This document shows positions 1,200-53,200 of a DNA stretch of 64,000 nucleotides, in pieces. The position numbers were made by a program, and so were the translations under genes. Location: assembly GCF_054482595.1 (NCBI RefSeq), contig NZ_CM137008.1. One strand, written 5' to 3'. Below the pieces are notes generated by a model. That model was not told where the DNA came from, ran no database searches, and saw nothing but the letters and a program-made list of their open reading frames with translations. Position 1 is the stretch's first letter; every line of letters begins with the position of its first letter.

Positions 1200-2069
<870 letters not shown>

Positions 2070-2293
2070 TCATCATACCGTTTATTCAATGTGCTGTGAG
2101 TAACTTTCACTTCCGTATTTGCATAACGATGTTTTAACATCTGCTGATGAAAGGCAGCGGCAATTACAATAATTATCGCTGTGAATACTGGATTATGTGC
2201 GCCGCCTCACGCACAATAATCAGGCTGTAAATCAGCTTAATAACTTTGCCCCCACGCAGGGCGGAGGCGTCACACCTGCAGGAGAAATCATAA

Positions 2294-2962
2294 ATGCCAT
2301 CACTCAGTAAAGAAGCGGCCCTGGTTCATGAAGCGTTAGTTGCGCGAGGACTGGAAACACCGCTGCGCCCGCCCGTGCATGAAATGGATAACGAAACGCG
2401 CAAAAGCCTTATTGCTGGTCATATGACCGAAATCATGCAGCTGCTGAATCTCGACCTGGCTGATGACAGTTTGATGGAAACGCCGCATCGCATCGCTAAA
2501 ATGTATGTCGATGAAATTTTCTCCGGTCTGGATTACGCCAATTTCCCGAAAATCACCCTCATTGAAAACAAAATGAAGGTCGATGAAATGGTCACCGTGC
2601 GCGATATCACTCTGACCAGTACCTGTGAACACCATTTTGTCACTATCGATGGCAAAGCGACGGTAGCCTATATCCCGAAAGATTCGGTGATCGGCCTGTC
2701 GAAAATTAACCGCATCGTGCAGTTCTTTGCCCAGCGCCCGCAGGTGCAGGAACGTCTGACTCAGCAAATCCTCATTGCGCTGCAAACGCTGCTGGGGACC
2801 AATAACGTGGCTGTCTCCATCGACGCGGTGCATTACTGCGTGAAAGCGCGTGGCATCCGCGATGCAACCAGTGCCACGACAACGACCTCTCTTGGTGGAT
2901 TGTTCAAATCCAGTCAGAATACGCGCCACGAGTTTCTGCGCGCTGTGCGTCATCACAACTGA
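2294..2962 (+). CDS. folE: GTP cyclohydrolase I
   Basis: 222-aa ORF recognised as FolE (…STCEHHFV… active-site region). Confidence 0.95.
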
Positions 2963-2978
2963 TTAAAAGGCAGGAACC

Positions 2979-4136
2979 ATGGAGCGCAACGTCACGCTCG
3001 ATTTTGTTCGCGGCGTCGCCATTCTGGGGATCCTGCTATTAAACATCAGCGCCTTTGGGCTACCAAAGGCGGCTTATCTCAATCCCGCCTGGTACGGTGC
3101 TATTACGCCGCAGGATGCATGGACCTGGGCATTTCTCGATCTCATCGGCCAGGTGAAATTCCTCACGCTTTTTGCGCTGCTGTTTGGTGCTGGCCTGCAA
3201 ATGTTGCTGCCCCGTGGCAGACGCTGGATCCAGTCGCGGTTAACGCTGTTAGTCTTGTTGGGCTTTATTCACGGTTTATTGTTCTGGGACGGCGATATTC
3301 TGCTGGCTTACGGGCTGGTGGGCTTAATCTGCTGGCGGCTGGTGCGCGATGCGCCATCGGTAAAAAGCCTGTTTAATACAGGCGTCATGCTTTATCTGGT
3401 GGGGCTTGGCGTTTTGCTGTTATTGGGGTTGATTTCCGACAGCCAGACCAGCCGCGCCTGGACGCCGGATGCATCGGCTATTTTGTATGAAAAATACTGG
3501 AAGCTTCACGGCGGCGTTGAAGCGATCAGTAATCGTGCCGATGGTGTTGGCAACAGTTTACTGGCACTGGGCGCACAGTATGGCTGGCAACTGGCAGGGA
3601 TGATGCTCATTGGTGCGGCGCTGATGCGCAGCGGCTGGCTGAAAGGGCAATTCAGCTTACGTCACTATCGTCGTACTGGTTTTGTGCTGGTGGCGATTGG
3701 GGTGACCATTAACCTTCCTGCCATCGCCCTGCAATGGCAGCTGGACTGGGCGTATCGCTGGTGTGCCTTCTTACTTCAAATGCCGCGGGAACTGAGTGCG
3801 CCGTTTCAGGCGATTGGCTATGCGTCGCTGTTTTATGGCTTCTGGCCGCAATTGAGCCGCTTTAAGCTGGTGCTTGCGATCGCCTGCGTCGGACGGATGG
3901 CGCTGACCAACTATCTATTGCAAACGCTGATTTGTACCACGCTTTTTTACCACCTCGGTTTGTTTATGCAGTTTGACCGTCTGGGATTGCTGGCGTTTGT
4001 TATTCCGGTATGGCTGGCGAATATCCTCTTCTCTGTTATCTGGCTGCGTTACTTCCGCCAGGGGCCGGTGGAATGGCTCTGGCGTCAGTTAACTTTGCGT
4101 GCTGCCGGACCGGCAATATCTAAAACATCAAGATAA
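2979..4136 (+). CDS. yeiB: DUF418-family inner-membrane protein
   Basis: 385-aa polytopic membrane ORF 17 nt downstream of folE; recognised as YeiB. Confidence 0.85.
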   Translation: MERNVTLDFVRGVAILGILLLNISAFGLPKAAYLNPAWYGAITPQDAWTWAFLDLIGQVKFLTLFALLFGAGLQMLLPRGRRWIQSRLTLLVLLGFIHGLLFWDGDILLAYGLVGLICWRLVRDAPSVKSLFNTGVMLYLVGLGVLLLLGLISDSQTSRAWTPDASAILYEKYWKLHGGVEAISNRADGVGNSLLALGAQYGWQLAGMMLIGAALMRSGWLKGQFSLRHYRRTGFVLVAIGVTINLPAIALQWQLDWAYRWCAFLLQMPRELSAPFQAIGYASLFYGFWPQLSRFKLVLAIACVGRMALTNYLLQTLICTTLFYHLGLFMQFDRLGLLAFVIPVWLANILFSVIWLRYFRQGPVEWLWRQLTLRAAGPAISKTSR

Positions 4137-4165
4137 CGATCTGGATCACATTCGTTAACAAAACG

Positions 4166-4183
4166 GCTGTAACCGTTTCCATT
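4166..4183 (+). promoter_or_regulatory. Candidate GalR/GalS operator upstream of galS (gctgtaaccgtttccat)
   Basis: Resembles gal operator half-sites (GTGTAAnCG…); galS is recalled to be autoregulated. Match is partial. Confidence 0.4.
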
Positions 4184-4185
4184 GC

Positions 4186-4201
4186 TGTGACTCGATTCAC
4201 G
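4186..4201 (+). promoter_or_regulatory. CRP-binding site candidate (TGTGA-ctcgat-TCACg) in galS promoter
   Basis: 9/10 match to TGTGA-N6-TCACA consensus read directly; about 80 nt upstream of galS ATG. Confidence 0.5.
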
Positions 4202-4277
4202 AAGTCCTGTATTCAGTGCTGACAAAATAGCCGCCAGCAAGCAGTCATTTACTGCAATCTCATAACAGGTAGTGAAT

Positions 4278-5318
4278 ATGATCACCATTCGTGATGTAGC
4301 GCGTCAGGCTGGCGTCTCTGTGGCAACGGTTTCCCGGGTGCTCAATAACAGCACGCTGGTCAGTGCCGACACGCGTGAAGCAGTAATGAAAGCCGTGAGT
4401 GAGCTGGATTATCGGCCAAACGCCAATGCCCAGGCGCTGGCAACTCAGGTTAGCGACACCATTGGCGTGGTGGTGATGGACGTTTCTGATGCGTTTTTCG
4501 GCGCGCTGGTAAAAGCGGTGGATCTGGTCGCCCAGCAGCATCAGAAATACGTGCTAATCGGCAATAGCTATCATGAAGCGGAAAAAGAACGTCACGCCAT
4601 TGAGGTGTTAATTCGCCAGCGTTGTAATGCATTGATTGTTCACTCAAAAGCATTGAGTGACGATGAACTGGCGCAATTTATGGATAACATTCCCGGTATG
4701 GTGTTAATCAACCGCGTTGTGCCGGGGTACGCCCATCGTTGCGTTTGCCTGGATAATCTCAGCGGTGCCCGAATGGCGACGCGCATGTTGCTGAATAACG
4801 GTCATCAACGTATTGGTTATCTTTCTTCCAGCCACGGCATTGAAGATGACGCCATGCGTAAAGCAGGCTGGATGAGTGCGTTGAAAGAGCAGGATATTAT
4901 TCCGCCGGAAAGCTGGATTGGCACTGGTACGCCGGACATGCCGGGCGGTGAGGCGGCGATGGTTGAACTGCTGGGGCGCAATCTACAACTTACCGCTGTA
5001 TTTGCTTATAACGACAATATGGCTGCTGGCGCACTGACAGCATTAAAAGATAATGGTATTGCGATTCCGTTACATCTCTCAATCATCGGTTTCGATGATA
5101 TTCCCATCGCCCGTTACACCGACCCGCAATTAACGACCGTGCGTTATCCCATTGCTTCAATGGCTAAATTAGCCACCGAACTGGCCTTGCAGGGGGCAGC
5201 AGGCAATATTGATCCTCGTGCCAGCCACTGTTTTATGCCGACGTTAGTGCGTCGTCATTCTGTCGCAACGCGCCAGAATGCGGCGGCGATCACTAACTCA
5301 ACAAATCAGGCGATGTAA
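4278..5318 (+). CDS. galS: Galactose isorepressor GalS (LacI/GalR family)
   Basis: Track ORF starts at GTG 4272; ATG at 4278 gives the 346-aa [14 protein letters not shown]… HTH protein recognised as GalS. Confidence 0.9.
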
Positions 5319-14059: not shown

Positions 14060-15186
<1,127 letters not shown>

Positions 15187-15388
15187 TTAATTCGTAAAAC
15201 GTGCTACCGATCACATTAAGAAATCAGCGCTTATTTTTTCGCTCCCCGGTATTACGCAATGAGCAGCGAACTCAGGCATACATCAAGCATAGAGAGGGAT
15301 TGCAGTTTGCAGCAATCCCTCTTTGCAGACCTTTAATCCGCTGACCATAGGCGCTAACATAGCGCCTCATTTTTTTGCGGGTGATGAT

Positions 15389-16339
15389 ATGCGTGTGTTA
15401 CTGGCACCGATGGAGGGTGTGCTTGACTCTCTGGTGCGTGAATTGCTGACCGAAGTTAACGACTACGATCTGTGCATCACCGAGTTTGTCCGCGTGGTGG
15501 ATCAACTGCTGCCGGTAAAAGTCTTTCATCGCATTTGCCCTGAGTTACAAAACGCCAGCCGGACACCATCCGGTACGCTGGTGCGCGTTCAGTTGTTAGG
15601 TCAGTTCCCACAATGGCTGGCAGAGAACGCCGCCCGTGCGGTGGAGTTAGGTTCCTGGGGCGTGGATCTCAATTGCGGCTGCCCGTCGAAAACGGTTAAC
15701 GGTAGCGGCGGCGGGGCGACGTTACTCAAAGATCCTGAACTCATCTACCAGGGGGCAAAAGCGATGCGTGAAGCTGTACCGGCGCATTTGCCCGTCAGCG
15801 TGAAAGTGCGTCTGGGCTGGGACAGCGGTGAGAAGAAATTTGAAATCGCCGATGCGGTTCAACAGGCTGGTGCTACGGAGCTGGTGGTGCATGGACGGAC
15901 AAAAGAGCAGGGTTACCGCGCGGAGCATATTGACTGGCAGGCGATTGGTGAGATTCGCCAGCGGCTGAATATTCCGGTGATTGCCAACGGTGAAATCTGG
16001 GACTGGCAGAGCGCGCAACAATGCATGGCGATCAGCGGCTGCGACGCAGTGATGATTGGTCGCGGGGCGCTCAATATTCCCAACCTGAGCCGGGTGGTAA
16101 AATATAACGAACCGCGAATGCCGTGGCCGGAGGTGGTTGCTTTGCTGCAAAAATATACCCGTCTGGAAAAGCAGGGCGATACCGGGTTATATCACGTAGC
16201 GCGGATTAAACAGTGGTTGAGTTATTTGCGTAAAGAATACGATGAAGCAACGGAATTATTTCAGCATGTTCGGGTGTTGAATAATTCCCATGATATTGCA
16301 AGGGCTATTCAGGCAATTGATATCGATAAGCTGCGATAA
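15389..16339 (+). CDS. dusC: tRNA-dihydrouridine(16) synthase
   Basis: ATG at 15389 gives the 316-aa [14 protein letters not shown]… Dus-family TIM-barrel protein; track ORF starts upstream. Confidence 0.9.
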
Positions 16340-16450
16340 TAGTGGAATCGCAGTTTATCAGAGACAATGAATCGCTTATTCAGCTTCATCATCTTGTTGC
16401 GCTCCTTTCATGAGCTAAGCCACATATTGCCACTGGCGCAAGGAGCGCGC

Positions 16451-16640
16451 AGGGGGAGGACAATCGCCTCCTCCCCCTGCACCCCCGGGCTCTGGCGAAC
16501 AAAATCGCCGCTGCGCGGTACCTTCAGCTTATCCCCTTCGGCTACCGGGTCGGGCGCGAGGTAACGTCCTTGTAAGACGCGCCCTCAGCCCACATCCATG
16601 TGGGCTGCCCCGGCCTTCGGGGAACGCTTCAGCGATTTTG
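16451..16640. repeat. Cluster of GC-rich perfect palindromes in dusC-yohP intergenic region
   Basis: cagggggagga-N8-tcctccccctg (11-bp arms), ggcgcg-N19-cgcgcc, cagcccacat-cc-atgtgggctg (10-bp arms) and ccccg-gcctt-cgggg, all read directly; not a canonical REP or ERIC sequence. Confidence 0.4.
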
Positions 16641-16726
16641 ACGCCACCAACACCGGAGCTGTTTGCAAATCAAGTACACAAAATATCTAGTTCCTGACCT
16701 GACAACTTATATGCCATATCTGATTT

Positions 16727-16810
16727 TTAAAATATCATCTTAAATACGCCAGTCACCACCAGTAGCCCAATCAGGAAAATAATCAATACAGCCCAGAGTA
16801 TAATTTTCAT
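16727..16810 (-). CDS. yohP: 27-aa small membrane protein YohP (MKIILWAVLIIFLIGLLVVTGVFKMIF)
   Basis: Not in ORF track (below length cutoff); found by reverse-complement reading; sequence recognised as YohP. Confidence 0.8.
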   Translation of the reverse strand: MKIILWAVLIIFLIGLLVVTGVFKMIF

Positions 16811-17033
16811 TGGCGTTCCTTTATTTGTGAGTGCTGAATAAGTATAGGAAAAAACGAAGCCCTTTGCCGTTATCCATAAACGATTAAGATAAATCGGAGA
16901 ATATCATTCACTTAGTGTATATTTTTCTGGATATGTCGTTTTATTGCTACTGATGTATTGCCACGCGAAACTAAAAAATATATCGCAACACACGGTAATC
17001 TCCGCGCACCTTTTCTTACCTGATTATTCCCCC

Positions 17034-18470
17034 ATGAATCGTGATTCCTTTTATCCAGCCATCGCCTGTTTTCCGCTGTTACTGATGCTGGCCGGGTGTG
17101 CGCCTATGCATGAAACCCGCCAGGCGTTAAGCCAGCAAACGCCCGCTGCACAAGTTGACACCGCATTACCCACGGCGCTGAAAAATGGTTGGCCAGACAG
17201 CCAATGGTGGCTGGAGTATCACGATAATCAACTCACTTCATTAATTAACAATGCACTACAGAACGCACCGGATATGCAGGTGGCTGAACAGCGCATTCAG
17301 CTAGCTGAAGCCCAGGCGAAGGCAATTGCCACTCAGGATGGTCCGCAGATCGACTTTTCTGCGGATATGGAGCGGCAAAAAATGTCGGCAGAAGGGCTAA
17401 TGGGGCCGTTTGCTCTGAACGATCCGGCCGCAGGTACGACCGGTCCGTGGTACACCAACGGAACTTTTGGCTTAACGGCGGGCTGGCATCTCGATATCTG
17501 GGGAAAGAATCGGGCGGAGGTTACTGCCCGCCTGGGTACGGTTAAAGCACGGGCGGCGGAACGCGAGCAAACCCGCCAATTGCTGGCTGGCAGCGTAGCC
17601 CGCCTGTACTGGGAGTGGCAAACCCAGGCGGCGTTAAACACTGTCTTGCAGCAAATCGAAAAAGAGCAGAACACCATTATCGCGACCGATCGCCAGCTAT
17701 ATCAGAACGGGATTACTTCTTCAGTTGAAGGTGTGGAAACCGATATTAATGCCAGCAAAACCCGGCAGCAGCTCAACGATGTCGCGGGGAAAATGAAAAT
17801 TATTGAGGCACGGTTAAGCGCACTTACAAATCACCAGACAAAGTCATTGAAGCTTAAACCGGTCGCGTTGCCGAAAGTGGCAAGCCAGCTTCCTGATGAA
17901 CTGGGGTACTCCTTACTGGCCCGGCGGGCAGATTTGCAGGCGGCGCACTGGTACGTTGAGTCATCGCTAAGCACCATTGATGCGGCAAAAGCGGCATTTT
18001 ATCCTGACATCAACCTGATGGCCTTCCTGCAACAGGATGCGTTGCATTTAAGCGATCTGTTCCGTCATTCCGCGCAGCAAATGGGCGTTACGGCAGGCCT
18101 GACGCTACCCATTTTCGATAGTGGTCGTCTTAACGCCAACCTCGATATCGCAAAAGCCGAAAGCAACTTGTCTATCGCCAGCTACAACAAAGCGGTGGTT
18201 GAAGCGGTGAATGACGTGGCGCGGGCAGCCAGTCAGGTTCAGACACTGGCGGAGAAAAACCAGCATCAGGCGCAAATTGAGCGCGATGCCTTGCGTGTGG
18301 TAGGTCTTGCGCAGGCCCGCTTTAACGCGGGCATCATTGCTGGTTCCCGCGTCAGCGAAGCCAGAATCCCCGCGCTGCGTGAGCGGGCCAATGGCCTGTT
18401 ATTGCAAGGGCAGTGGCTGGATGCCTCCATTCAACTCACTGGTGCGTTGGGCGGGGGTTACAAACGCTGA
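17034..18470 (+). CDS. mdtQ: Outer-membrane efflux lipoprotein (OMF / NodT family), intact
   Basis: ATG at 17034 gives a 478-aa protein with lipobox LLMLAGC; track ORF starts upstream. Recalled as a pseudogene in K-12; intact here. Confidence 0.85.
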   Translation: MNRDSFYPAIACFPLLLMLAGCAPMHETRQALSQQTPAAQVDTALPTALKNGWPDSQWWLEYHDNQLTSLINNALQNAPDMQVAEQRIQLAEAQAKAIATQDGPQIDFSADMERQKMSAEGLMGPFALNDPAAGTTGPWYTNGTFGLTAGWHLDIWGKNRAEVTARLGTVKARAAEREQTRQLLAGSVARLYWEWQTQAALNTVLQQIEKEQNTIIATDRQLYQNGITSSVEGVETDINASKTRQQLNDVAGKMKIIEARLSALTNHQTKSLKLKPVALPKVASQLPDELGYSLLARRADLQAAHWYVESSLSTIDAAKAAFYPDINLMAFLQQDALHLSDLFRHSAQQMGVTAGLTLPIFDSGRLNANLDIAKAESNLSIASYNKAVVEAVNDVARAASQVQTLAEKNQHQAQIERDALRVVGLAQARFNAGIIAGSRVSEARIPALRERANGLLLQGQWLDASIQLTGALGGGYKR

Positions 18471-18522
18471 TGATATGTGACTTCTATACTTAACGTTTAT
18501 TCAGCGTTAAGTGGAGAACTCG

Positions 18523-19284
18523 ATGGCACAGGTAGCGATTATTACCGCCTCCGATTCGGGGATCGGCAAAGAGTGCGCGTTATTACTGGCGCAGCAAGGG
18601 TTTGATATTGGCATTACCTGGCACTCAGATGAAGAAGGGGCAAAAGATACCGCGCGTGAGGTAGTTAGCCACGGCGTACGTGCGGAGATTGTGCAGCTGG
18701 ATCTCGGTAAACTGCCAGAAGGTGCGCAGGCGCTGGAGAAACTCATTCAACGGCTGGGGCGTATTGATGTGCTGGTGAATAATGCGGGCGCAATGACCAA
18801 AGCGCCGTTTCTTGATATGGCTTTCTATGAGTGGCGCAAGATTTTTACCGTTGATGTCGATGGTGCATTTTTATGCTCGCAAATTGCTGCCCGCCAGATG
18901 GTGAAACAAGGGCAGGGTGGTCGCATCATCAACATTACGTCGGTACATGAACATACGCCGCTGCCGGATGCCAGCGGCTACACAGCCGCTAAACATGCGC
19001 TCGGTGGGTTAACCAAAGCAATGGCGCTGGAGTTGGTCAGGCATAAGATTTTGGTGAACGCAGTCGCACCTGGGGCGATCGCTACGCCAATGAACGGCAT
19101 GGATGATAGCGACGTGAAGCCCGACGCGGAGCCTTCGATTCCTCTGCGGCGTTTTGGCGCAACGCATGAGATTGCCAGCCTGGTGGCGTGGCTTTGTTCG
19201 GAGGGTGCAAATTACACCACCGGGCAGTCGTTGATAGTGGATGGCGGCTTTATGTTGGCGAATCCGCAGTTCAACCCAGAATAG
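18523..19284 (+). CDS. yohF: Short-chain dehydrogenase/reductase (SDR)
   Basis: ATG at 18523 gives 253-aa protein with TASDSGIGKE cofactor-binding motif and YTAAK catalytic motif. Confidence 0.9.
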   Translation: MAQVAIITASDSGIGKECALLLAQQGFDIGITWHSDEEGAKDTAREVVSHGVRAEIVQLDLGKLPEGAQALEKLIQRLGRIDVLVNNAGAMTKAPFLDMAFYEWRKIFTVDVDGAFLCSQIAARQMVKQGQGGRIINITSVHEHTPLPDASGYTAAKHALGGLTKAMALELVRHKILVNAVAPGAIATPMNGMDDSDVKPDAEPSIPLRRFGATHEIASLVAWLCSEGANYTTGQSLIVDGGFMLANPQFNPE

Positions 19285-19324
19285 CGCAGTGAGGTGCGTG
19301 GTTATTTCAATGGGTAAAATTTTG

Positions 19325-19406
19325 GTAGACATGATAAGACGCACAAGCGCCGCATCAGGCATGGTGCACCGGATGTCGGATGCGGTACGCACGCCTTATC
19401 CAGAGC
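19325..19406. repeat. BIME: two REP units in yohF-yohD intergenic region
   Basis: gtagacatgataagacgcacaagcgccgcatcaggc and ccggatgtcggatgcggtacgcacgccttatcc both match REP consensus. Confidence 0.6.
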
Positions 19407-19413
19407 AATGTTT

Positions 19414-19992
19414 TTACGCCTGATTATCCGGCTTTTTCTTCCCGCGCCGTTTCAGCCACCAGCGCACGCCTACCACCAGAACCACGACCAGAATCAACCA
19501 GACCCAGTGCTTCAAATGCTGGTCGAGATTGTGCAACCACGGCGCAATCACCTGACCACCAGCGTAACCGATAGTGGTAAAAATCAACGCCCAGGCAAAT
19601 GCGCCGAGAATATTCAGCGGCAGAAAGATTTTCGGCGGCAGCTGGCTGGCACCAATCAGCGTCGGGCCAATCACCCGAAAGCCATACATAAAGCGCGTAC
19701 CAATGACAAACAGATACGGATGGCGTTGGATCAGTTTCTGCGCCCGCTCAATTTTATCCTGATGTTTCGAGAAACGGCGTAACAGCTTGCCGCCAAACCG
19801 CCGCCCGCACAGATAGAGCACCTGGTCGCCAATCATGCCGCCAAGCGCTACAGAAAGTACCACCAGCGGGAACTTTAATAGCCCCTGATGCGCCGCAACG
19901 CCTCCCAGCAAAGTCACGGTTTCACCTTCCGCCAGGCTACCGATCACCAGCGCGGCATAACCATATTGTGAGATGAGTGTATTGAGATCCAT
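19414..19992 (-). CDS. yohD: DedA-family inner-membrane protein
   Basis: ATG at 19992 gives 192-aa MDLNTLISQYGYAALVIGSLAEGE… protein; track ORF starts upstream. Confidence 0.85.
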   Translation of the reverse strand: MDLNTLISQYGYAALVIGSLAEGETVTLLGGVAAHQGLLKFPLVVLSVALGGMIGDQVLYLCGRRFGGKLLRRFSKHQDKIERAQKLIQRHPYLFVIGTRFMYGFRVIGPTLIGASQLPPKIFLPLNILGAFAWALIFTTIGYAGGQVIAPWLHNLDQHLKHWVWLILVVVLVVGVRWWLKRRGKKKPDNQA

Positions 19993-20161
19993 AGGCCAGT
20001 CTGTCTCCCTTTGGTTGCCTGTAAGCATACACCCTGGAAATCATTCACGCTGAAAAAGGACGTACATCAGACGGTGCAAATTACATGAGCGAACAAAAAA
20101 TAATCACAAGCTGACTTATACTTGAACTGTCAGGTTCATGAACTCACAACAAGGGGGCGGT

Positions 20162-20749
20162 ATGAGCCATGTCTGGGGACTGTTTTCCCATCCCGATCGT
20201 GAAATGCAGGTGATTAATCGCGAAAACGAAACGATTTCTCACCATTACACCCACCACGTTTTGCTGATGGCGGCGATTCCGGTGATTTGCGCCTTCATTG
20301 GCACTACACAGATTGGCTGGAATTTTGGCGATGGCACTATCCTGAAGTTATCCTGGTTTACCGGACTGGCGCTGGCTGTCTTGTTTTACGGCGTTATGCT
20401 GGCTGGGGTTGCGGTGATGGGGCGGGTCATCTGGTGGATGGCGCGTAATTACCCGCAGCGTCCGTCACTTGCGCACTGCATGGTCTTCGCGGGCTACGTT
20501 GCAACTCCGCTGTTTTTAAGCGGTCTGGTGGCGCTTTATCCGCTGGTCTGGTTGTGTGCGCTGGTCGGCACGGTGGCACTGTTTTACACCGGTTACCTGC
20601 TTTACCTTGGTATTCCGAGCTTCCTGAATATCAACAAAGAGGAAGGCCTTAGCTTCTCCAGTTCGACGCTGGCGATTGGCGTGCTGGTACTGGAAGTGCT
20701 GCTCGCCCTAACCGTTATACTATGGGGCTACGGTTATCGTTTGTTCTAG
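20162..20749 (+). CDS. yohC: Yip1-family inner-membrane protein
   Basis: ATG at 20162 gives 195-aa MSHVWGLFSHPDREMQ… protein. Confidence 0.85.
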   Translation: MSHVWGLFSHPDREMQVINRENETISHHYTHHVLLMAAIPVICAFIGTTQIGWNFGDGTILKLSWFTGLALAVLFYGVMLAGVAVMGRVIWWMARNYPQRPSLAHCMVFAGYVATPLFLSGLVALYPLVWLCALVGTVALFYTGYLLYLGIPSFLNINKEEGLSFSSSTLAIGVLVLEVLLALTVILWGYGYRLF

Positions 20750-20922
20750 AAAGTTCTTTGACGTTGCATTGCTGGCGTAAATGTCAGCAATGCAGCATTT
20801 CCTCACGATTCTCCTTTGACGATCGCACTTTTTGCTCGTTATGATGGCGTCGCTAGCCTCAGTAAATCCTTACTCCGGCGGTGCGCAACCCGTGCGCGTG
20901 AACCACTATCTGAATGCTCATC

Positions 20923-41351: not shown

Positions 41352-41434
41352 AAAAAAACCTGCTGGTGAGGCAGGTTCTTTTATTTACTATTTTCAGGCC
41401 TAACACCACAGCCTGTGCAACATCGTGTTCCAAC
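41352..41434 (-). ncRNA. orzO: Antisense sRNA antitoxin of the first zor toxin copy (OrzO/OrzP type)
   Basis: Minus-strand sigma70 promoter (-35 TTGCAA 41469..41464, 17-nt spacer, -10 TATAAT 41446..41441); terminator hairpin cctgctggtgaggcagg (41359-41375) followed by U7 on minus strand; 5' 19 nt complementary to the toxin leader. O versus P copy assignment is from memory and uncertain. Confidence 0.55.
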
Positions 41435-41440
41435 GAACGA

Positions 41441-41491
41441 ATTATAACCACGGCTGGACCCCGTTGCAATTAAGATAATGAGATTTATAAT
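41441..41491. promoter_or_regulatory. Back-to-back divergent promoters of sRNA and toxin mRNA sharing one palindromic -35 hexamer
   Basis: Plus strand: -35 TTGCAA 41464-41469, 16-nt spacer, -10 TATAAT 41486-41491; minus strand uses the same TTGCAA with -10 TATAAT at 41446..41441. Confidence 0.5.
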
Positions 41492-41672
41492 CCAGACCGT
41501 TGGGACGTTGCGCCGGATCGAACCTATTTCAAGTCCTGGCTACCGGACGGGTGGTGCTTCAGGTGGTGCCCTGAGCCGGAGTGCAACATCGTGGTCCAAC
41601 ATACGTAAACCAGTATTGACAGGCAGTGTAAGGGTAAGGTGCTGGTGTTGCGCTCCTTAATAAGGAGAGCGG

Positions 41673-41762
41673 ATGGACTCGCTGACACAAAAGTTAACCG
41701 TGCTCATTGCTGTACTGGAGCTATTAGTAGCTCTGTTACGGTTGATTGATTTGTTGAAGTAA
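41673..41762 (+). CDS. zorO: Type I toxin, 29 aa (MDSLTQKLTVLIAVLELLVALLRLIDLLK), ZorO/ZorP family
   Basis: Not in ORF track; AAGGAG Shine-Dalgarno 5 nt upstream; ~175-nt leader from predicted TSS; sequence recognised as Zor toxin. Which copy is zorO and which zorP is not certain. Confidence 0.8.
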   Translation: MDSLTQKLTVLIAVLELLVALLRLIDLLK

Positions 41763-41784
41763 CGGGCAAATTGAAACGCATCTA

Positions 41785-41812
41785 AGGGGGAAAACCGCTT
41801 CCCCCTTTAATA
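41785..41812 (+). terminator. Rho-independent terminator of first zor toxin gene
   Basis: gggggaaaaccgcttccccc hairpin followed by TTTAATAAAAT. Confidence 0.6.
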
Positions 41813-41961
41813 AAATGATTACTGTTTTTATTAATTCATCATATAACTCATTTTTATTTATAAATTCATCGATTTTATATTCAACGCACCATTTGACCGG
41901 GATGTGAATATTTATGGTGGGCTATTGGCAAAAAATATCTGGAAAGTAGATCGCAGAAAAT

Positions 41962-42042
41962 AAAAAAACCTGCTGGTGAGGCAGGTTCTTTTATTTACTA
42001 CAGTGACGCTAACTTGCTGATTGTGCAACATTTCGTACCAAC
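41962..42042 (-). ncRNA. orzP: Antisense sRNA antitoxin of the second zor toxin copy
   Basis: Same architecture as copy 1: -10 TATAAT at 42054..42049, -35 TTGCAA 42076..42071, terminator hairpin 41969-41985 with U-run; 5' 18 nt complementary to cognate leader (42190-42207). Confidence 0.55.
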
Positions 42043-42048
42043 GAATAA

Positions 42049-42099
42049 ATTATAACCATATCCACACTCCATTGCAATTCAGTGAGTGAGATTTATAAT
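42049..42099. promoter_or_regulatory. Second copy of the divergent sRNA/toxin promoter pair with shared palindromic -35
   Basis: TTGCAA 42071-42076 flanked by TATAAT on plus strand (42094-42099) and on minus strand (42054..42049). Confidence 0.5.
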
Positions 42100-42280
42100 C
42101 CTGCCCGTTGGGAGGTTGTGCCGGATCGGACCAATTTTAAGTCCTGGCTGCCGGACGGGTGGTGCCGCAGGCGGTGCCCTGATCCGGAGAGCAACGTTTC
42201 GTACCAACATACGTAAACCAGTATCGACAGGCAGTGTAAGGGTAAGGTGCTGGTGTTGCGCTCCTTAATAAGGAGAGCGG

Positions 42281-42370
42281 ATGGACACGCTGACACAAAA
42301 GTTAACCGTGCTCATTGCCGTACTGGAGTTATTAGTGGCTCTGTTACGGTTGATTGATTTGTTGAAGTAA
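42281..42370 (+). CDS. zorP: Type I toxin, 29 aa (MDTLTQKLTVLIAVLELLVALLRLIDLLK), ZorO/ZorP family
   Basis: Not in ORF track; second tandem copy 608 bp downstream of the first; differs by Ser3Thr; AAGGAG SD present. Confidence 0.8.
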   Translation: MDTLTQKLTVLIAVLELLVALLRLIDLLK

Positions 42371-46500: not shown

Positions 46501-49500
46501 TTATTCAAACAGGGCTTCAATATCGTTAATTAGCTCGCTGGCGGTGATGGCATCGAGTACGGAGAGCTGCGCTTCCTGTGTTGAATTACTCCCCCAGCCA
46601 TAGCTTTCCGCTTTGCCTTCCCATAGCCACTGCTTGCTTAAGAGTTGCTCGGCACTCAGTTCGGCTGGCGACATGCCTACCGCAAAGCCTTCATCGATTT
46701 CCATGATTAACGACCAGCGGCCCAGAGGTTTGATCATCCAGCCGATCCAGCCTCCATCCTGTGGTTCGCCCTTTATCCAGCCTTTATTCGCCAGCCCCAT
46801 TACCCGACCGCTCGGGCATTTTCTGCCTGCCCAGCGGGTCAGTTCGCTGGCATTGCGCTCGGTTTCTGTCAGGGCGTAACTGTTACGGTCGAGCTGGCGG
46901 AACGGCGGTAGCAGTTCGTAGTCGGCAAAAAGCTGCCCAAATGCGGCGGCATCCGTCGGTGATATTTCCAGAACGTGAGGAATACCAACAGAGATATCGC
47001 CTTCCGGCAGGGTGAAAAGATCATCGTCAGCGGTGCTGTAGCTGTTATCTTCCGCTACCCGGAAACAGGCCAGTAGCTGGTTTTCGGCGCTATAAACGCC
47101 CCAAATCAGACGGCGGGTTAAGTGGCGAACTAGCGGATGCTCAACCAGGAAGAGCTGAAAGTTATCCGGTGACCAGCGGCGACGCAGGCACATGGCGGAT
47201 TCCAGCCTTGCTACCTGCTGGGCGGCGACGGTACGCGCATCTTTTTTCAGCAGTTTGTAGCGGTTAACAGCATCGTTCGCCTGTGATTCATCATCGCTTT
47301 TGTTTGGTTTGGGCAGGTCTTTCAGACGGCTGCCAGAAACATCACGCACAAACGGTTTTAAGGTTTCATCAAAGCTGACGGTGAACTGGCGTGAGCCGAA
47401 ATCCAGCAGCAACGAACCGTTATCATCCAGACCGAGATCCGGTGCTAACCGATCTTCAAGCTCTGCCACCGTGAGTTCGCGGCTTTCGGCAATGTCGGCA
47501 ATTTTTTCTTTTGCCCGCTCCTGTAATGCTTTGAATTTCAGTTTCTGGGCAATACCGTTAAGCTGCATCAGGGCGATATCACTACCGATAGCGGCGAGAA
47601 TATCCAACCCAACGGTGGCGCGTTTATGCTGGGATTCACCAGGCCAGGCGCGTATTAATGGCGTCAGTTTGCGGGCGGTGTCATCGTTACCAAGAACGCC
47701 TAACGCAGTGAACGCCCAACTCTCTTTCGACGGTGCGCCCGCAGTCAGCCAGGCGGTAAACAGATCCCAGGCAAATTCAGCCAGTGAGTCGGCGGTACAG
47801 GCATCTTTCACCTGCAATAATCCCGGATACAGGGCCTCTTCCTGAGGGAAGCGGAGCATTTCACCGAGGTGCTGGAGTGCGCTATCTGGCAGTGATTGGG
47901 CGTTTGTATTTAATACCGGGCGCGTCCAGAGCGATGGCTGATAAAAGGCCGGAAGAGTGGGGATTTTTGTCGGGTGATTATCTAAGGGATCGAGCGCAAG
48001 CAGAGCGTTCACCGCGTCGGTTACTTCCGGCTGGTTATAACGCCGGGCGATTTCTTGCAGTAATGGCTGATGACCGTTTTCGGTAAGCATACGTAAGGCA
48101 GCGCGAGCGTTATCTTGTGCTTCACCGGCTTTGCCGAGCGCCGAAGGCAGCAGGCCGGTTATGGCGTGTTCCGGGTATTTTAGCAGCCAGCTACGGGCGT
48201 CTTGTCGTAGGGTTTTGAGTTTGTTGAAGGCGCGGGCAATGAATGGAGCCAATTCGACAGCCGCGAAATATTGTGCCACGGGAAGAGCTTCCTGCGGATA
48301 GCGAGATGCTGAGTGGATAAAACCTGTTAAACCAGCAAGTCGAAGATGCAACATTACTTGTTTTTCACCTGTATGTGGTTCTTTACTAAGGATATTCCAC
48401 ATCTCAATAGCTTTATTTATGGGTAAAACATGGAGTGAAGAAAGCTTCCATTCGCCCTGATAAGGGGCGTTATAGGACTTAAAAGCATCGATCAAAGTTA
48501 AATAATCTTCACGCTGCCAAGCATCCAACGCTATTTCTGGAATATCAATATAGCCTCTATGTTTGTTCCAATCCCAGCGGTCGAATCCCAGGGAATTCAG
48601 AAAACCTTTTTCTCCCTCTGCTTGCTGACGAGGTTGCCAATTATGCTGCACTTGTAGTCTTTTGCTTTTTGTTTCATTTATTGTACAGAAAGATTCCAGG
48701 GGTAATGGTGCTAAATCCAGCACTGGAGTCGGCGATTTTTTCTTTTTAGCCTGCCACGGCGGTGAGACTAATACGGCAGGCAGCATATCGGCGTTCGCAT
48801 AAACTGAAGGTTGTGTCAGTTGTTGCTGGCATGACTTAAGAACGGTAACTGTCGGGGCAGATAGCCAGGAGATCACCCGTTCTACTAATGTTGGTTGTGA
48901 GATAAGCATCGTCATTAGCATCATGCGCCAGCGCTTTTCATCTTTTTGTGCCAGAAGTTCTGCTAATGCCGCCAGCGCTGCATGTGGAAAGCGAACGAAA
49001 GCCTTTGTCATGCGATCGTGGCAACGCTTTCCCTGCTCACTTGCATGGATAAGTAGTGTAAGTGCTTGCGGGTGGTTGATATGCATCAACACTTCCCCAC
49101 ATGTGTCACCAGCAGCGTAAGGGGCAAAACGGGCCAACGCAGCGACACCTTGCTCCTTGAGTACTGTCGCACACCAGATTTTACCGCCGTAATAATCATC
49201 AAATACCTGCCCTGGCTGTCCTGGATAGTATTTCCCCAGTTCTGCCAATACCTGCTCGTCGGTGGTCGTCAGTTTTAGCCATTCCAGCGCATATACCCCT
49301 TTTTGTCCGCAAAGATGTCTGGCAATCTCATGAGCTACTTCTGGTTTTTCCGGCAACAATAGTGCGACCAGCGGCTGGTTCCAGGCGGGCATGTTTCCGA
49401 GAGCGGCAATCAGTTTGTCGGCGCAGCGCTGCCATACATCGTCATTTGCAAGTGAGAGATGCTTACGCAGGCGCATTTCAACCGAAGCGAAGCGTGACAG

Positions 49501-50259
49501 ATAGTCAGGCTGCTTGTTATCCGGGGTAAAAGTAATGAGGTGGGCATCATAATTCCAGTCAAATCGGATGAATTGCAATGCGATGACAACCTCAGTGGCA
49601 TATTCCAGACCACCTTCCTGGACAATTTGATCCATTAACTCTTCGTGATCGTTACGATTGAAGCCTTGCTCCAGCGCAACCAGTACCGCCAGAACCATCG
49701 GTAGTAGTGTGGTGCTAATCGGCGAGTCGATAAGGCCCACTGCTTGTGTAATCGCCTGCTGCCAGTCCAGTGAACAGGTGCTGTAATCGAAGGTGATCAC
49801 CTTTTTAAAACGCCGGTGAGTATTCGCGGAGACGGAGCGTAGCAGGGTTAATTCATTCTCCTTTGGCACAGGATCGCCAGGCCAGCGTCGATGACTTAGT
49901 GTGGTTGGCGCAACCTCTGTCGGTAAAATGATTTGGGCGTCGTCTGCCAGCCAGGGGAGGTGGTCTCCAGTCAATGCTGGTTTGTCTTGTGGCAAAGGGG
50001 CTATTTCAGGGCATTCGATAACCTGGGTGGGTACAGATGTCGGTGTCATCACGGATACTTCTTCTACGTAGCCCTTTTTTGTTTTCTCCGCAATCAGCTT
50101 CAGTTCCGCTTTTTCCGCCGCCGCAGCATCTGCAAAGCTTTTTACCTGACTTTGCCCGTTAGTGCCGACTTTACCCCAGGTTATATGCAGCTCGTTTCTC
50201 TGCTGCTCCACCGCCCAGAATTTATGTGATTTTTCGTCCTGATAAATATAGGTTTTCAT
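46501..50259 (-). CDS. molR: MolR-like giant protein (1252 aa): N-terminal WGR domain + C-terminal DUF4132
   Basis: N-terminus MKTYIYQDEKSHKFWAVEQQRNELHITWGKVGTNGQ… is a WGR domain; intact reading frame; 9 nt upstream of yehI. Which of the two copies corresponds to K-12 molR/yehH is unresolved. Confidence 0.85.
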   Translation of the reverse strand: MKTYIYQDEKSHKFWAVEQQRNELHITWGKVGTNGQSQVKSFADAAAAEKAELKLIAEKTKKGYVEEVSVMTPTSVPTQVIECPEIAPLPQDKPALTGDHLPWLADDAQIILPTEVAPTTLSHRRWPGDPVPKENELTLLRSVSANTHRRFKKVITFDYSTCSLDWQQAITQAVGLIDSPISTTLLPMVLAVLVALEQGFNRNDHEELMDQIVQEGGLEYATEVVIALQFIRFDWNYDAHLITFTPDNKQPDYLSRFASVEMRLRKHLSLANDDVWQRCADKLIAALGNMPAWNQPLVALLLPEKPEVAHEIARHLCGQKGVYALEWLKLTTTDEQVLAELGKYYPGQPGQVFDDYYGGKIWCATVLKEQGVAALARFAPYAAGDTCGEVLMHINHPQALTLLIHASEQGKRCHDRMTKAFVRFPHAALAALAELLAQKDEKRWRMMLMTMLISQPTLVERVISWLSAPTVTVLKSCQQQLTQPSVYANADMLPAVLVSPPWQAKKKKSPTPVLDLAPLPLESFCTINETKSKRLQVQHNWQPRQQAEGEKGFLNSLGFDRWDWNKHRGYIDIPEIALDAWQREDYLTLIDAFKSYNAPYQGEWKLSSLHVLPINKAIEMWNILSKEPHTGEKQVMLHLRLAGLTGFIHSASRYPQEALPVAQYFAAVELAPFIARAFNKLKTLRQDARSWLLKYPEHAITGLLPSALGKAGEAQDNARAALRMLTENGHQPLLQEIARRYNQPEVTDAVNALLALDPLDNHPTKIPTLPAFYQPSLWTRPVLNTNAQSLPDSALQHLGEMLRFPQEEALYPGLLQVKDACTADSLAEFAWDLFTAWLTAGAPSKESWAFTALGVLGNDDTARKLTPLIRAWPGESQHKRATVGLDILAAIGSDIALMQLNGIAQKLKFKALQERAKEKIADIAESRELTVAELEDRLAPDLGLDDNGSLLLDFGSRQFTVSFDETLKPFVRDVSGSRLKDLPKPNKSDDESQANDAVNRYKLLKKDARTVAAQQVARLESAMCLRRRWSPDNFQLFLVEHPLVRHLTRRLIWGVYSAENQLLACFRVAEDNSYSTADDDLFTLPEGDISVGIPHVLEISPTDAAAFGQLFADYELLPPFRQLDRNSYALTETERNASELTRWAGRKCPSGRVMGLANKGWIKGEPQDGGWIGWMIKPLGRWSLIMEIDEGFAVGMSPAELSAEQLLSKQWLWEGKAESYGWGSNSTQEAQLSVLDAITASELINDIEALFE

Positions 50260-50271
50260 TGTTAAATCCTT

Positions 50272-53200
50272 TTAATCAAACAGTGATTCAATGTCGTTAA
50301 TCAGCTCGCTGGCGGTGATGTCGTCGAGCATGGAGAAAGTGGGTGAGGATTGTTTACCATAGCGATCATAAGGGGCGGTGATTTTTACGCTTTCGACAGG
50401 CAGCAGGTCGCTATACCCCGTTTCGCCATAAATTAATGAAAAAGGTTCTGTTTCAAGTTCGAGAGCACCATAAGGGGTAGATTTGCGCATCGCATAGACG
50501 CTGCCGCTTTCTTCCAGACGTTGCCAGCCTCTGCGTTCCAGCCCGACAATGCGTCCGGCCTGGCAGAGACGTCCGTTCCAGCGTGACAATTCATGGACAT
50601 TACGTTCGTTATCAGCAAGGTGGTAACTACCACGTTCGAGCTGTTGGAAAGGGGGAAGCAGTTCGTAATCAACGTAAATTTGCCTGAATGCAGCGGCGGA
50701 TTCAGGGGGGATTTCCAGCACATGCGGTATACCGATGTTTCCTGCTGGCAGCGTGAATAACTCATCCTGCGCATCGCTGTAAGTGCTGTCTTCTGCCACG
50801 CGAAAACAGGTGATAAGAGCGTTTTCATCGTTATAAACCCCCCATAACAGCCGTCGGGTTAAGTGACGTACCAGCGGATGCTCCACCAGAAACAGGCGGA
50901 ACTGCTCTGCCGTCCAGCGTCTGCGCTGGCACATAGCCTGTTCCAGACGGGTAATTTGCTGGCTGGCGATAGCACGAACATCTTTTTTCAACTGTTTGAA
51001 GAGATTAACTGCGTCAGTTGCCAGTGTTTTATCATCGCTCTGGTTTGGCTTAGGTAAATCTTTCAGGACTTTGCCGTTTGCATCGCACACTACAGGTTTT
51101 AAGGTTTCGTCAAAACCAACGGTGAATTTGCGGGGGCCGAAATCCAGTATCAGCGAGCCACTGCTATCAAGCCCTAAATCCGGTGCCAGGCGATCTTCCA
51201 GTTCGGCCATTGTCAGTCCGCGATTTTCGGCGACCATATTGATTCTGTCGCTGGCATTTTCCTGTAATGCAACGAATTTAATCTTTTGCGCAATGCCATT
51301 AAGCAACATAAGCGCAATGTCGCTACCGATACTGGCTAACACATCCAGCCCGTAAACCGCGCGTTTATGCTGGGATTCACCCGGCCAGGCGCGGATGAGC
51401 GGGGTTAGTTTACGCGCGGTGTCGTCATTGCCTAGAATCCCCAGCGAGGTAAATGCCCAGTTCTCTTTTGCGGGTGCGCCTGCTTCTGTCCATGCCGTGT
51501 AGAGATCCCAGCCAAAGTCAGCCAGTGATTCGCGGGTGAAGGTCTCTTTGATGATCGCCAGCCCAGCGTAGGAGGTAATGTCGCGTGGAAAGCTCAACAT
51601 TGTGCCGAGGTGGCGCATAGCGTCATCTGGCAGAGGCAGGTTGTTACTTTTAAGCCGAGGTCTGCGCCATAAGGTGAACTGATAAAAGCCGGGCAGTGGG
51701 GCGATTTTTGCAGGATATTCTTCCAGTGGGGCGCTATCAAATAATGTTGCCAGCGCAGATAAAACATCAGGTTGATTATATCCTTGGGCGATTTCCTCAA
51801 TCGTTTCTCGCTGGTTTAATTTCACTAGCAGGAGGAGTGCCTGGCGGGCATATTCCCGATTTTGGCACGGTTTGCCCAGCGCCAAAGGCAGTAGCCCGGC
51901 GGCGGCATGGCGCGGGTTATTTGCCAGCCAATTAACGGCATCCTTGTAAGCTATTTTTTTCTGTAACCGCTGCGCCATTGGTAAGGCTAGTTCACTGGCT
52001 CCAATAAAAAGGGTGAATATCCACAGGCGTTGATGATCTCGTTGCAAGCAGGTCATAAACGCAGGAATGGCCGTACTACCAAAAACCGCCAGAATCTCTT
52101 TCTCACCTGAATATCGCTCCTCAATGATTATTTGGTTGAGAAATGAAATCGCCTGTTGTCCCGGTAAGTAACAAAGCGCAGATAGATTCCAGCTTTTGTT
52201 GGCATTGTTGTGATATTTCGCAAACTCAGCTTTTAGTGCTGGAAAATCAAAGCGCAACAAGGCATCAACAGCGCTTTGCGGTATATATTTTTTTTCATGT
52301 AAGTCATTTTCGCAATGCAGCCATTCATTAAAACCTAATTGCCAAAGGATTTGTTGTTCTGGTGTAAAAGGAATGAAAGATGTCTCCCAGCTTTCTTTTT
52401 CAATTAGTGGCAGAACGGTAAATAAGGTTTGCTGTGATGCCTGATATTGCGCAATTTCACTGAATCTGGATATGTCAGTATGACTGATTAACTCTGTAAT
52501 TCCTGGTGTGATATCCGTGACGGCAGGAATGGGAAGTACCGGTAAATCAAATACGGGTATGACATTCTTTTTCTTATTTATTACCCACGGTGGAGCGACA
52601 AGCAGCTCCGGCAACATATCCACAGTGGCATATTCACATTCTTCAGCTACTGGCAGCGGACGACATTCAGATAAGATGCCTGCCGCCTTAGCATTAACCC
52701 AGGGAATGACCTCGCATACTAACTCTGGCGTGGCGGTAATCAGTTTGACAAGCGCTTTACGCCACTCATTATTTTCATGTATTGCCAGCAAAGTAGCATA
52801 AGCGGCAATAGCCGCAGCGGGATGTTTTTGGCAGGCTTTGCTTAAGTATTCCAGGTGCTTTTTCTTGCCATTTACACCGAGGATCAGAATTTGAATCGCA
52901 TCCGGGTGATTCGTTTTCCATAGCCATTTGACAAGATCTTCAGCATTGGCGTGTATGTGAGTGAAAAGGTCCGTGTATTTTACGGGATAGTCGACAGGTA
53001 GCTTGAGAAGAATCCGGCTTACACCACGCATTCCATTATTTGCCAGCAACGTAGCCAGATATTTGCGGAAATCATTATATAGCGGTGGGAAACCATATTT
53101 TTCCTGGATGGCCAGGGCAACATCATCGCTTACCATCATACTTAACCAGGTCATCGCCGGAACGTTTTGGTCTGCATAACGTAGCGCCATAGCATTGGCA

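What the first reader, a model, noticed from the sequence alone, without database searches (positions are those of the whole stretch)
17034..18470. mdtQ outer-membrane efflux lipoprotein is intact here
The 478-aa lipobox-containing OMF protein reads through without interruption. I recall this gene as a pseudogene in K-12, so this strain may retain a functional outer-membrane channel for an efflux pump.
Basis: partly seen in the sequence, partly recalled or inferred. Interest (0 to 1): 0.3.

Follow-up and report, generated by a model that had tools for sequence, protein, structure and literature searches.

The report
Intact mdtQ outer-membrane channel gene
This E. coli window carries the normal, uninterrupted copy of mdtQ, an outer-membrane efflux-channel lipoprotein gene that is broken only in the K-12 laboratory lineage by loss of a single A, so the finding is correct but ordinary and already documented.

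Summary
ATG 17034 to TGA 18470 (+) is an uninterrupted 478-codon ORF with a lipobox (LAG-C22). It matches NCBI's MdtQ equivalog model end to end (1025 bits, cut-off 650).

K-12 MG1655 annotates mdtQ (b2139) as a 1436-bp pseudogene. I located the lesion: one A is lost from the A5 run at window 17181-17185 (codons K50-N51), so K-12 stops after 69 codons.

The intact state is not special to this strain. Of 5,426 complete E. coli genomes, 4,941 carry the A5 allele and 355 carry the K-12 A4 allele. All 60 sampled A4 genomes carry K-12 sequence, and no genome has A6.

A natural isolate (MLI105) equals "repaired" K-12 apart from one synonymous site. Pairwise dN/dS among six lineages is 0.05-0.09. Orthologues in E. 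albertii, Salmonella and Citrobacter are intact and syntenic.

A 2025 review already states that mdtQ is conserved in the E. coli core genome despite its pseudogene annotation.

By homology, MdtQ is a NodT-type outer-membrane factor. No pump is encoded beside it, its partner is unknown and its function is untested.

Verdict: real, correctly interpreted, already known, low interest.

The parts
17034..18470 (+). mdtQ (yohG) coding sequence, 478 aa plus stop, uninterrupted
   Evidence: ORF listing and sequence. NCBIfam NF008524 MdtQ equivalog, 1025.1 bits against a cut-off of 650, aligned 1-478/478. TIGR01845 NodT subfamily, 273.9 bits against a cut-off of 210. Pfam OEP PF02321, two stretches. 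RefSeq annotates the identical sequence in strain XH990 as mdtQ, WP_021556979.1.
17034..17099 (+). Lipoprotein signal peptide (residues 1-22) ending in lipobox L-A-G-C22. Ala23 at +2 implies outer-membrane sorting by Lol.
   Evidence: Read directly from the translation. G21, C22, A23 and P24 are invariant in 12 orthologues. Lipidation and sorting are inferred from the established lipobox and +2 rules, not tested.
17181..17185 (+). A5 homopolymer (codons K50 AAA and N51 AAt). This is the site of the K-12 lesion, where K-12 has A4.
   Evidence: Pairwise alignment of the window with NC_000913.3 b2139. The K-12 frame then reads ...LK-MVGQTANGGWSITIINSLP-stop, 69 codons in all. L49-K50-N51-G52-W53 is invariant in orthologues from four genera, so A5 is ancestral. 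Allele counts: 4,941 A5, 355 A4, 0 A6.
17238..17831 (+). First OEP repeat (residues 69-266). A second OEP stretch follows in the C-terminal half.
   Evidence: Pfam PF02321, two stretches, best stretch 69-266. Homology to solved outer-membrane factors spans residues 51-478.
16727..16810 (-). yohP, a 27-aa small membrane protein gene, divergent from mdtQ. The 223-bp yohP-mdtQ spacer should hold the mdtQ promoter.
   Evidence: Coordinates mapped from the RefSeq XH990 annotation, which is 100% identical over window 1-38700. No strong sigma-70 consensus and no purine-rich Shine-Dalgarno lie before ATG 17034.
18523..19284 (+). yohF, an SDR oxidoreductase gene 52 bp downstream on the same strand. It is probably co-transcribed with mdtQ.
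   Evidence: RefSeq annotation mapped onto the window. No terminator-like site lies between 18470 and 18523. yohF is absent from the Citrobacter locus, so it is not an obligatory partner.

Best explanation
Window 17034-18470 is the wild-type, intact allele of mdtQ (formerly yohG). mdtQ is one of the four outer-membrane factor (OMF) genes of E. coli, alongside tolC, cusC and mdtP.

Shown here:
- The ORF is uninterrupted and full length relative to the MdtQ family model.
- It has a lipoprotein signal peptide.
- The K-12 pseudogene results from loss of one A from the A5 run at codons 50-51.
- That lesion is confined to K-12-derived sequence.
- The gene evolves under strong purifying selection and is intact and syntenic in neighbouring genera.

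Inferred from family knowledge:
- The precursor is exported by Sec, acylated on Cys22, cleaved by signal peptidase II and sent to the outer membrane by Lol (Ala at +2).
- There it forms a TolC/OprM-like trimer, with a 12-stranded beta-barrel pore and a long periplasmic alpha-helical tunnel.
- The trimer docks, through a periplasmic adaptor protein, onto an inner-membrane transporter and serves as its exit duct.

No adaptor or pump gene is adjacent, so like TolC it must work with a pump encoded elsewhere. Its closest characterised relatives are MdtP of the MdtNOP system and VceC of the VceCAB system. By my recollection both partner with non-RND pumps of the EmrAB/MFS type, which makes such a pump the best guess for the partner.
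For: - Intact ORF.
- MdtQ equivalog 1025 bits, 1-478/478; NodT subfamily above cut-off; MdtP model 356 bits as next best.
- Two OEP repeats.
- Homology to solved OMFs over residues 51-478: VceC 1yc9 at E 1.5e-39, or 7e-45 with a profile; also OprM, CusC, SilC, CmeC, OprN, OprJ and MtrE.
- K-12 b2139 is annotated as a pseudogene, and J53 as 'frameshifted'.
- The lesion was mapped.
- Allele census: A5 in 4,941 genomes, A4 in 355, A6 in 0, out of 5,426.
- All 60 sampled A4 genomes are K-12 laboratory derivatives, apart from EcN_Sk, whose mdtQ is 100% K-12 sequence.
- MLI105 equals repaired K-12 apart from one synonymous change, and dN/dS is 0.05-0.09 across six lineages.
- Orthologues are intact at 478-479 aa in E. 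albertii (94%), Salmonella (82%) and Citrobacter (81%).
- Synteny is conserved and no pump is adjacent.
Against: - No direct evidence of expression or activity.
- The 30 nt before the ATG (GCGCACCTTTTCTTACCTGATTATTCCCCC) lack a Shine-Dalgarno-like purine run. The consensus scan found no promoter-like site in the yohP-mdtQ spacer beyond a weak 9/12 match inside yohP.
- No partner pump is known.
- The gene is dispensable in culture: K-12 lacks it, MRE162 has lost mdtQ-yohF to an IS1, and Salmonella Typhi and Paratyphi A isolates carry independent truncations (PMC9241588).
- The drug-sensitivity phenotype cited for mdtQ null mutants (Sulavik 2001, via PMC11762307) is hard to reconcile with the K-12 frameshift if a K-12 strain was used. 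I could not check the strain.
- My own structure prediction failed (pLDDT 34), so the fold rests on sequence homology and on the published model.
Confidence: 0.88

Rival explanations
1. The gene is intact but effectively silent. It would be a cryptic, poorly expressed gene that contributes nothing measurable under most conditions, so its intactness has no phenotypic consequence compared with K-12.
For: There is no recognisable Shine-Dalgarno and no good sigma-70 consensus upstream. The review notes that the mdtQ promoter has not been confirmed experimentally and the function is unknown. The gene is dispensable in K-12, in MRE162 and in some Salmonella Typhi isolates.
Against: dN/dS of 0.05-0.09 across E. 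coli lineages, together with intact orthologues at about 81% identity in Salmonella and Citrobacter, means the protein is made and matters somewhere in nature. Outside K-12 sequence, none of the 37 non-K-12 full-length matches in a 40-row spread sample showed a net indel.
Confidence: 0.2
2. MdtQ is a true outer-membrane factor, but its natural job is not multidrug efflux. It could export an endogenous metabolite, siderophore, peptide or toxin, or act as a back-up duct when TolC is limiting.
For: The 'multidrug resistance' name comes only from modest sensitivities of null mutants. The gene is an orphan in three genera, with no drug pump beside it. Family members such as TolC, CusC, SilC and TdeA handle ions, toxins and proteins as well as drugs.
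Against: Nothing in the sequence discriminates between substrates, and no candidate cargo system is linked to the gene. This refines the best explanation more than it contradicts it.
Confidence: 0.25
3. The K-12 'pseudogene' is an annotation or sequencing artefact, and the two sequences do not really differ in coding capacity.
For: None found. Homopolymer errors are common in assemblies, which is why I checked.
Against: The A4 allele is present in 355 independently assembled genomes. These include MG1655, BW25113, DH1, DH5alpha, JM109, MC4100, C600, TG1, HMS174 and NCM3722. It is flagged frameshifted or pseudogene in both records inspected. Frame 0 of K-12 stops after 69 codons.
Confidence: 0.01

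Closest known systems
MdtQ (YohG) of E. coli, e.g. O157:H7 UniProt Q8X659; NCBIfam NF008524
   Same: This is the same gene. It aligns full length (1-478/478, 1025 bits). It differs by 3 aa from an O157:H7 copy and by 2 aa from the repaired K-12 and MLI105 copy. It sits in the same position, dusC-yohP-mdtQ-yohF-yohD.
   Different: Nothing of substance. The two substitutions relative to K-12 and MLI105 (I98 for V, H267 for N) fall in columns that vary among orthologues.
K-12 mdtQ pseudogene (b2139, formerly split as yohG/yohH)
   Same: Same locus and 99% nucleotide identity. 12 of the 14 substitutions are synonymous.
   Different: K-12 lacks one A of the A5 run, at window 17181-17185 (about NC_000913.3 2,228,608-2,228,611, complement strand). 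Its product ends after 69 codons, and the remaining 427 codons are out of frame and have no signal peptide.
MdtP, outer-membrane factor of the E. coli mdtNOP operon (NCBIfam NF007390)
   Same: Closest paralogous family, at 356 bits over residues 17-477. It is also a NodT-type lipoprotein of unknown physiological role.
   Different: The score is below the MdtP cut-off of 597, so this is not MdtP. mdtP lies in an operon with an adaptor and a pump, whereas mdtQ stands alone.
VceC of Vibrio cholerae (PDB 1yc9), with OprM, CusC, CmeC and TolC as solved outer-membrane factors
   Different: The relationship is distant, and the review gives 12% identity to TolC. Those proteins have defined pump partners and MdtQ has none known. 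Unlike TolC, MdtQ is a lipoprotein.

Membership tests
MdtQ equivalog (NCBIfam NF008524) | Whole-protein score above the curated cut-off, with an end-to-end alignment | tested here: met
   1025.1 bits against a cut-off of 650, aligned 1-478 of 478.
MdtQ equivalog (NCBIfam NF008524) | Orthologous chromosomal position, between dusC/yohP and yohF/yohD | tested here: met
   Same order in the window (via XH990), in K-12 and in Salmonella. Citrobacter has the same order but lacks yohF.
Outer-membrane factor family (Pfam OEP PF02321; TC 1.B.17), NodT lipoprotein subfamily (TIGR01845) | Two tandem OEP repeats and a subfamily HMM score above cut-off | tested here: met
   PF02321 at 106 bits with two stretches. 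TIGR01845 at 273.9 bits against a cut-off of 210.05.
Outer-membrane factor family, NodT lipoprotein subfamily | N-terminal signal peptide with a lipobox cysteine and a non-Asp residue at +2 | tested here: met
   L19-A20-G21-C22-A23, with G21, C22 and A23 invariant in orthologues. Actual acylation was not tested.
Outer-membrane factor family | TolC-like fold: trimer with a 12-stranded beta-barrel and an alpha-helical periplasmic tunnel | tested here: inconclusive
Tripartite efflux system (OMF plus periplasmic adaptor plus inner-membrane pump) | Cognate adaptor and pump genes linked to the OMF gene | tested here: not met
   No MFP, RND, MFS-pump or ABC genes lie within the flanks inspected (about 17-20 kb each side in E. 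coli, about 6 kb each side in Salmonella and Citrobacter). As with tolC, this does not exclude function with unlinked pumps.
Tripartite efflux system | Outer-membrane localisation and demonstrable efflux or export activity | not testable with these tools
   [quoted passage not shown] The primary paper is not held.
K-12-type mdtQ pseudogene | A4 instead of A5 at codons 50-51, giving a frameshift | tested here: not met
   The window has A5 at 17181-17185 and an open frame. The window is therefore not the pseudogene allele.

The most novel reading that the evidence does not exclude
K-12 alone lost mdtQ, through a very recent single-base deletion, yet the gene is kept under strong purifying selection across Escherichia, Salmonella and Citrobacter. 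Decades of K-12-based efflux genetics may therefore have overlooked a second general-purpose exit duct. In natural isolates such as this one, MdtQ could give TolC-independent export, of drugs or of an endogenous or host-related substrate, through an unlinked non-RND pump of the EmrAB or MdtNO type.
Probability: 0.25. Interest if true: 0.45.

Novelty: already known. Interest (0 to 1): 0.08.

Why it matters
The practical point is modest. K-12 is not a faithful model for the E. coli complement of outer-membrane efflux channels. Wild isolates, including clinical strains like the one this window resembles (XH990, a urine isolate), carry four intact outer-membrane factor genes rather than three.

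Anyone wishing to learn what MdtQ does should work in a natural isolate or repair the single missing A in K-12. The exact lesion and its restriction to K-12 make that experiment simple.

The finding does not reveal a new gene, mechanism or system. The conservation of mdtQ despite its pseudogene label is already in the literature (PMC11762307).

Tried and rejected
1. **Slippage hot spot or phase variation at the A5 run.** Rejected. No genome of 5,426 has A6. The one apparent non-K-12 carrier of A4 (EcN_Sk) has a mdtQ identical to K-12 at all 14 diagnostic SNPs, so it is K-12 DNA rather than an independent event.

2. **Structure prediction to test the fold directly.** The 12-sequence alignment (at least 80% identity) was too shallow. 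The model had pLDDT 34 and pTM 0.18, and I did not use it for fold search. I chose not to spend the large representative-library search and a second prediction, because the fold is not in doubt.

3. **Primary source for the null-mutant phenotype.** Sulavik 2001 (PMC90435) is not held. I could not check which strain was used, or how a phenotype arose from a gene that is already frameshifted in K-12.

4. **Non-coding RNA or regulatory elements around mdtQ.** The Rfam scan of 15000-20500 at E<=1 gave nothing at gathering score. There was one sub-threshold naRNA4/REP-like hit at 19328-19405 and three chance-level hits.

5. **Promoter and terminator scan.** No more sites were found than in shuffled sequence, and none was convincing upstream of mdtQ.

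6. **Longer ORF from TTG 16944 (508 aa).** Rejected as the start. The family model and all orthologues begin at the ATG 17034 methionine, and only that start places the lipobox correctly.

7. **Genomic context of orthologues as a clue to the partner pump.** There is no linked pump in Salmonella or Citrobacter either.

Full report
**Observation**

The stretch 17034-18470 on the + strand is an open reading frame from ATG to TGA. It is 1437 nt long and encodes 478 residues.

- The N-terminus, MNRDSFYPAIACFPLLLMLAG-C22-APM, is a typical lipoprotein signal peptide.
- It carries the lipobox L-A-G-C, with alanine at +2.
- The mechanical ORF list extends the frame upstream to a TTG at 16944 (508 aa).
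- The family model nevertheless aligns 1-478/478 from the ATG.
- All orthologues start M-N-R, so 17034 is the start.

**Identity**

- It scores 274 bits against the NodT outer-membrane-factor subfamily TIGR01845 (cut-off 210).
- It scores 356 bits against the MdtP model, which is below that model's cut-off of 597.
- Pfam finds two OEP repeats.
- Against solved structures, it is homologous over residues 51-478 to VceC (1yc9; E 1.5e-39, or 7e-45 with an orthologue profile).
- More distantly, it matches OprM, CusC, SilC, CmeC, OprN, OprJ and MtrE.

Window positions 1-38700 are 100% identical to the chromosome of E. coli XH990, a urine isolate from China. RefSeq annotates the same ORF in that record as mdtQ. 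The rest of the window differs from that record by one SNP and one base in a G-run. The window therefore comes from a near-identical strain or assembly.

**The K-12 comparison**

NC_000913.3 annotates mdtQ (b2139) as a pseudogene of 1436 bp.

Aligning the two genes gives 14 substitutions and one gap. K-12 has AAAA where the window has AAAAA, at 17181-17185 (codons K50 AAA and N51 AAT).

- In K-12 the frame then reads ...L49-K50-MVGQTANGGWSITIINSLP-stop, 69 codons in all.
- The remaining 427 codons continue in another frame without a signal peptide.
- Only 2 of the 14 substitutions change an amino acid (I98V and H267N), and both are at variable positions.
- L49-K50-N51-G52-W53 is invariant in orthologues from Escherichia, Salmonella and Citrobacter.

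The window therefore has the ancestral state and K-12 the derived deletion.

**How unusual is the intact allele?**

It is not unusual at all.

- The 1.9-kb region is present at 95-100% identity in 5,423 of 5,426 complete E. coli genomes, and at 80% coverage or more in 5,406.
- I used short queries designed so that the wrong allele cannot seed a megablast hit.
- The A5 41-mer is found in 4,941 genomes.
- The K-12 A4 40-mer is found in 355 genomes.
- An A6 version is found in none.
- 130 genomes are left unclassified.

I sampled 60 A4 genomes evenly. They are MG1655, BW25113, DH1, DH5alpha, JM109, MC4100, C600, TG1, HMS174, NCM3722, J53, S17-1 and similar laboratory strains. The one exception is EcN_Sk, whose mdtQ is identical to K-12 at every diagnostic site, so it is K-12 DNA and not a recurrence.

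A natural phylogroup-A-like isolate, MLI105 (human stool, Mali), has an intact mdtQ. It differs from 'repaired' K-12 by a single synonymous base. The K-12 lesion is therefore very recent and specific to that lineage.

Rare other losses exist. MRE162 substr. NOR has an IS1 in place of mdtQ-yohF.

**Selection and distribution**

- Nei-Gojobori dN/dS among the window, repaired K-12, MLI105, UPEC 536, O157:H7 611 and A37 ranges from 0.05 to 0.09. The near-identical K-12/MLI105 pair is uninformative.
- Orthologues of 478-479 aa occur in E. albertii (94%), Salmonella enterica (about 82%) and Citrobacter (about 81%).
- In Salmonella the gene order is dusC-yohP-mdtQ-yohF-yohD-yohC-pbpG-dld-bglX, as in E. 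coli.
- In Citrobacter yohF is missing and a methyltransferase gene replaces yohP, but mdtQ still stands alone.

No periplasmic adaptor or inner-membrane pump gene is linked in any of the three genera.

**How it probably works**

What is shown is the sequence anatomy and the family membership. The rest follows from established knowledge of outer-membrane factors and of lipoprotein biogenesis.

1. The precursor is exported by Sec.
2. Lgt diacylates Cys22.
3. Signal peptidase II cleaves the precursor.
4. The N-terminus is acylated.
5. Lol delivers the protein to the outer membrane, because +2 is Ala and not Asp.
6. The protein assembles into a trimer that forms a beta-barrel pore and an alpha-helical periplasmic tunnel.
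7. The tunnel tip engages a periplasmic adaptor, and so opens an exit path for an inner-membrane transporter.

The nearest characterised relatives are MdtP (mdtNOP) and VceC (VceCAB). By my recollection both serve non-RND pumps, so a pump of the EmrAB/MFS type is my best guess for the partner. This is inference only.

Expression signals are unimpressive.

- There is no purine-rich Shine-Dalgarno in the 30 nt before the ATG.
- No convincing sigma-70 consensus lies in the 223-bp yohP-mdtQ spacer.
- No terminator-like site lies in the 52 bp before yohF, so mdtQ-yohF co-transcription is likely.

Weak signals fit low or conditional expression. The low dN/dS argues against a dead gene.

**What is already known**

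A 2025 review of TolC lists MdtQ as one of three TolC homologues in E. coli (PMC11762307). It makes the following points:

- mdtQ is encoded independently of any pump.
- Its function is not elucidated and its promoter is unconfirmed.
[quoted passage not shown]'

A 2025 paper on YohP likewise refers to 'the mdtQ pseudogene' of K-12 (PMC12719787). Independent truncations of mdtQ in some Salmonella Typhi and Paratyphi A isolates have also been reported (PMC9241588).

What I add is limited:

- the exact lesion;
- its restriction to K-12 sequence, with counts;
- the absence of other length variants at the homopolymer;
- the dN/dS figures.

One oddity remains. A drug-sensitivity phenotype for a yohG deletion is hard to understand if the parent was K-12, where the gene is already frameshifted. 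I could not read the primary paper. Polarity on yohF, small MIC noise, or rare -1 ribosomal slippage at CUG-AAA-AUG are possible explanations. None was tested.

**Verdict**

The one correction is that the intact gene is the species norm and K-12 is the outlier.

The gene is a member of a known family and is the known gene itself. Nothing about its sequence or context is new. Interest is low. The residual value is as a reminder that the function and pump partner of MdtQ are still open, and are best studied outside K-12.

Noticed in passing
window 41352-42370 (gap between yehL and yehK): A tandem pair of zor-orz type I toxin-antitoxin loci. Rfam OrzO-P antitoxin sRNAs lie at 41352-41427(-) (99.9 bits) and 41962-42035(-) (88.8 bits), against a gathering score of 60. 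Each has a divergent 29-aa ORF, MD(S/T)LTQKLTVLIAVLELLVALLRLIDLLK, at 41673-41762(+) and 42281-42370(+). The two units are about 87% identical. Nothing is annotated here in the RefSeq XH990 record.
   Followed up: partly
window 46501-50259 (-) and 50272-54072 (-): Two large tandem WGR + DUF4132 ORFs (1252 aa and 1266 aa) read through without interruption, next to yehI. In the near-identical XH990 RefSeq record they are annotated as 'incomplete' or 'frameshifted' pseudogenes. The window has one extra G in a G-run at about 50710, which keeps the second ORF open. From memory, this is the molR region, which is a pseudogene in K-12.
   Followed up: partly
window ~16383-16670: The GC-rich structured element between dusC and yohP corresponds to the published TRIP1c repeat, which lies 43 bp after yohI/dusC and 363 bp before yohG. 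TRIP1c is reported to mediate chromosomal rearrangements with other TRIP1 copies (PMC10888264). Perfect 12-nt and 10-nt hairpin arms were seen.
   Followed up: partly
window 20838-20918 (+): Peptidase-S11 RNA motif (Rfam RF03039, 72.8 bits against a gathering score of 34.8), just upstream of pbpG.
   Followed up: no
L009 (E. coli MRE162 substr. NOR) 4157-4854: An IS1B element sits where mdtQ and yohF should be, between yohP and yohD. This is a natural or laboratory deletion of the whole gene.
   Followed up: no
L004 (E. coli EcN_Sk, 5.06 Mb) 1876-3311: A genome labelled as a Nissle-type strain carries a mdtQ that is base-for-base identical to K-12, including the frameshift, together with the K-12 YohF protein. 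This suggests a K-12-derived segment, a hybrid or a labelling problem.
   Followed up: partly
window 45431 and ~50710: These are the only two differences from the XH990 chromosome across the 64 kb: one SNP and one G-run length difference. The window therefore comes from a near-identical strain or a different assembly of the same strain.
   Followed up: yes
window 19328-19405 (-): A sub-threshold match to naRNA4/CssrE, a REP-derived nucleoid-associated RNA (41.9 bits against a gathering score of 59.5), between yohF and yohD. It is probably a REP element.
   Followed up: no
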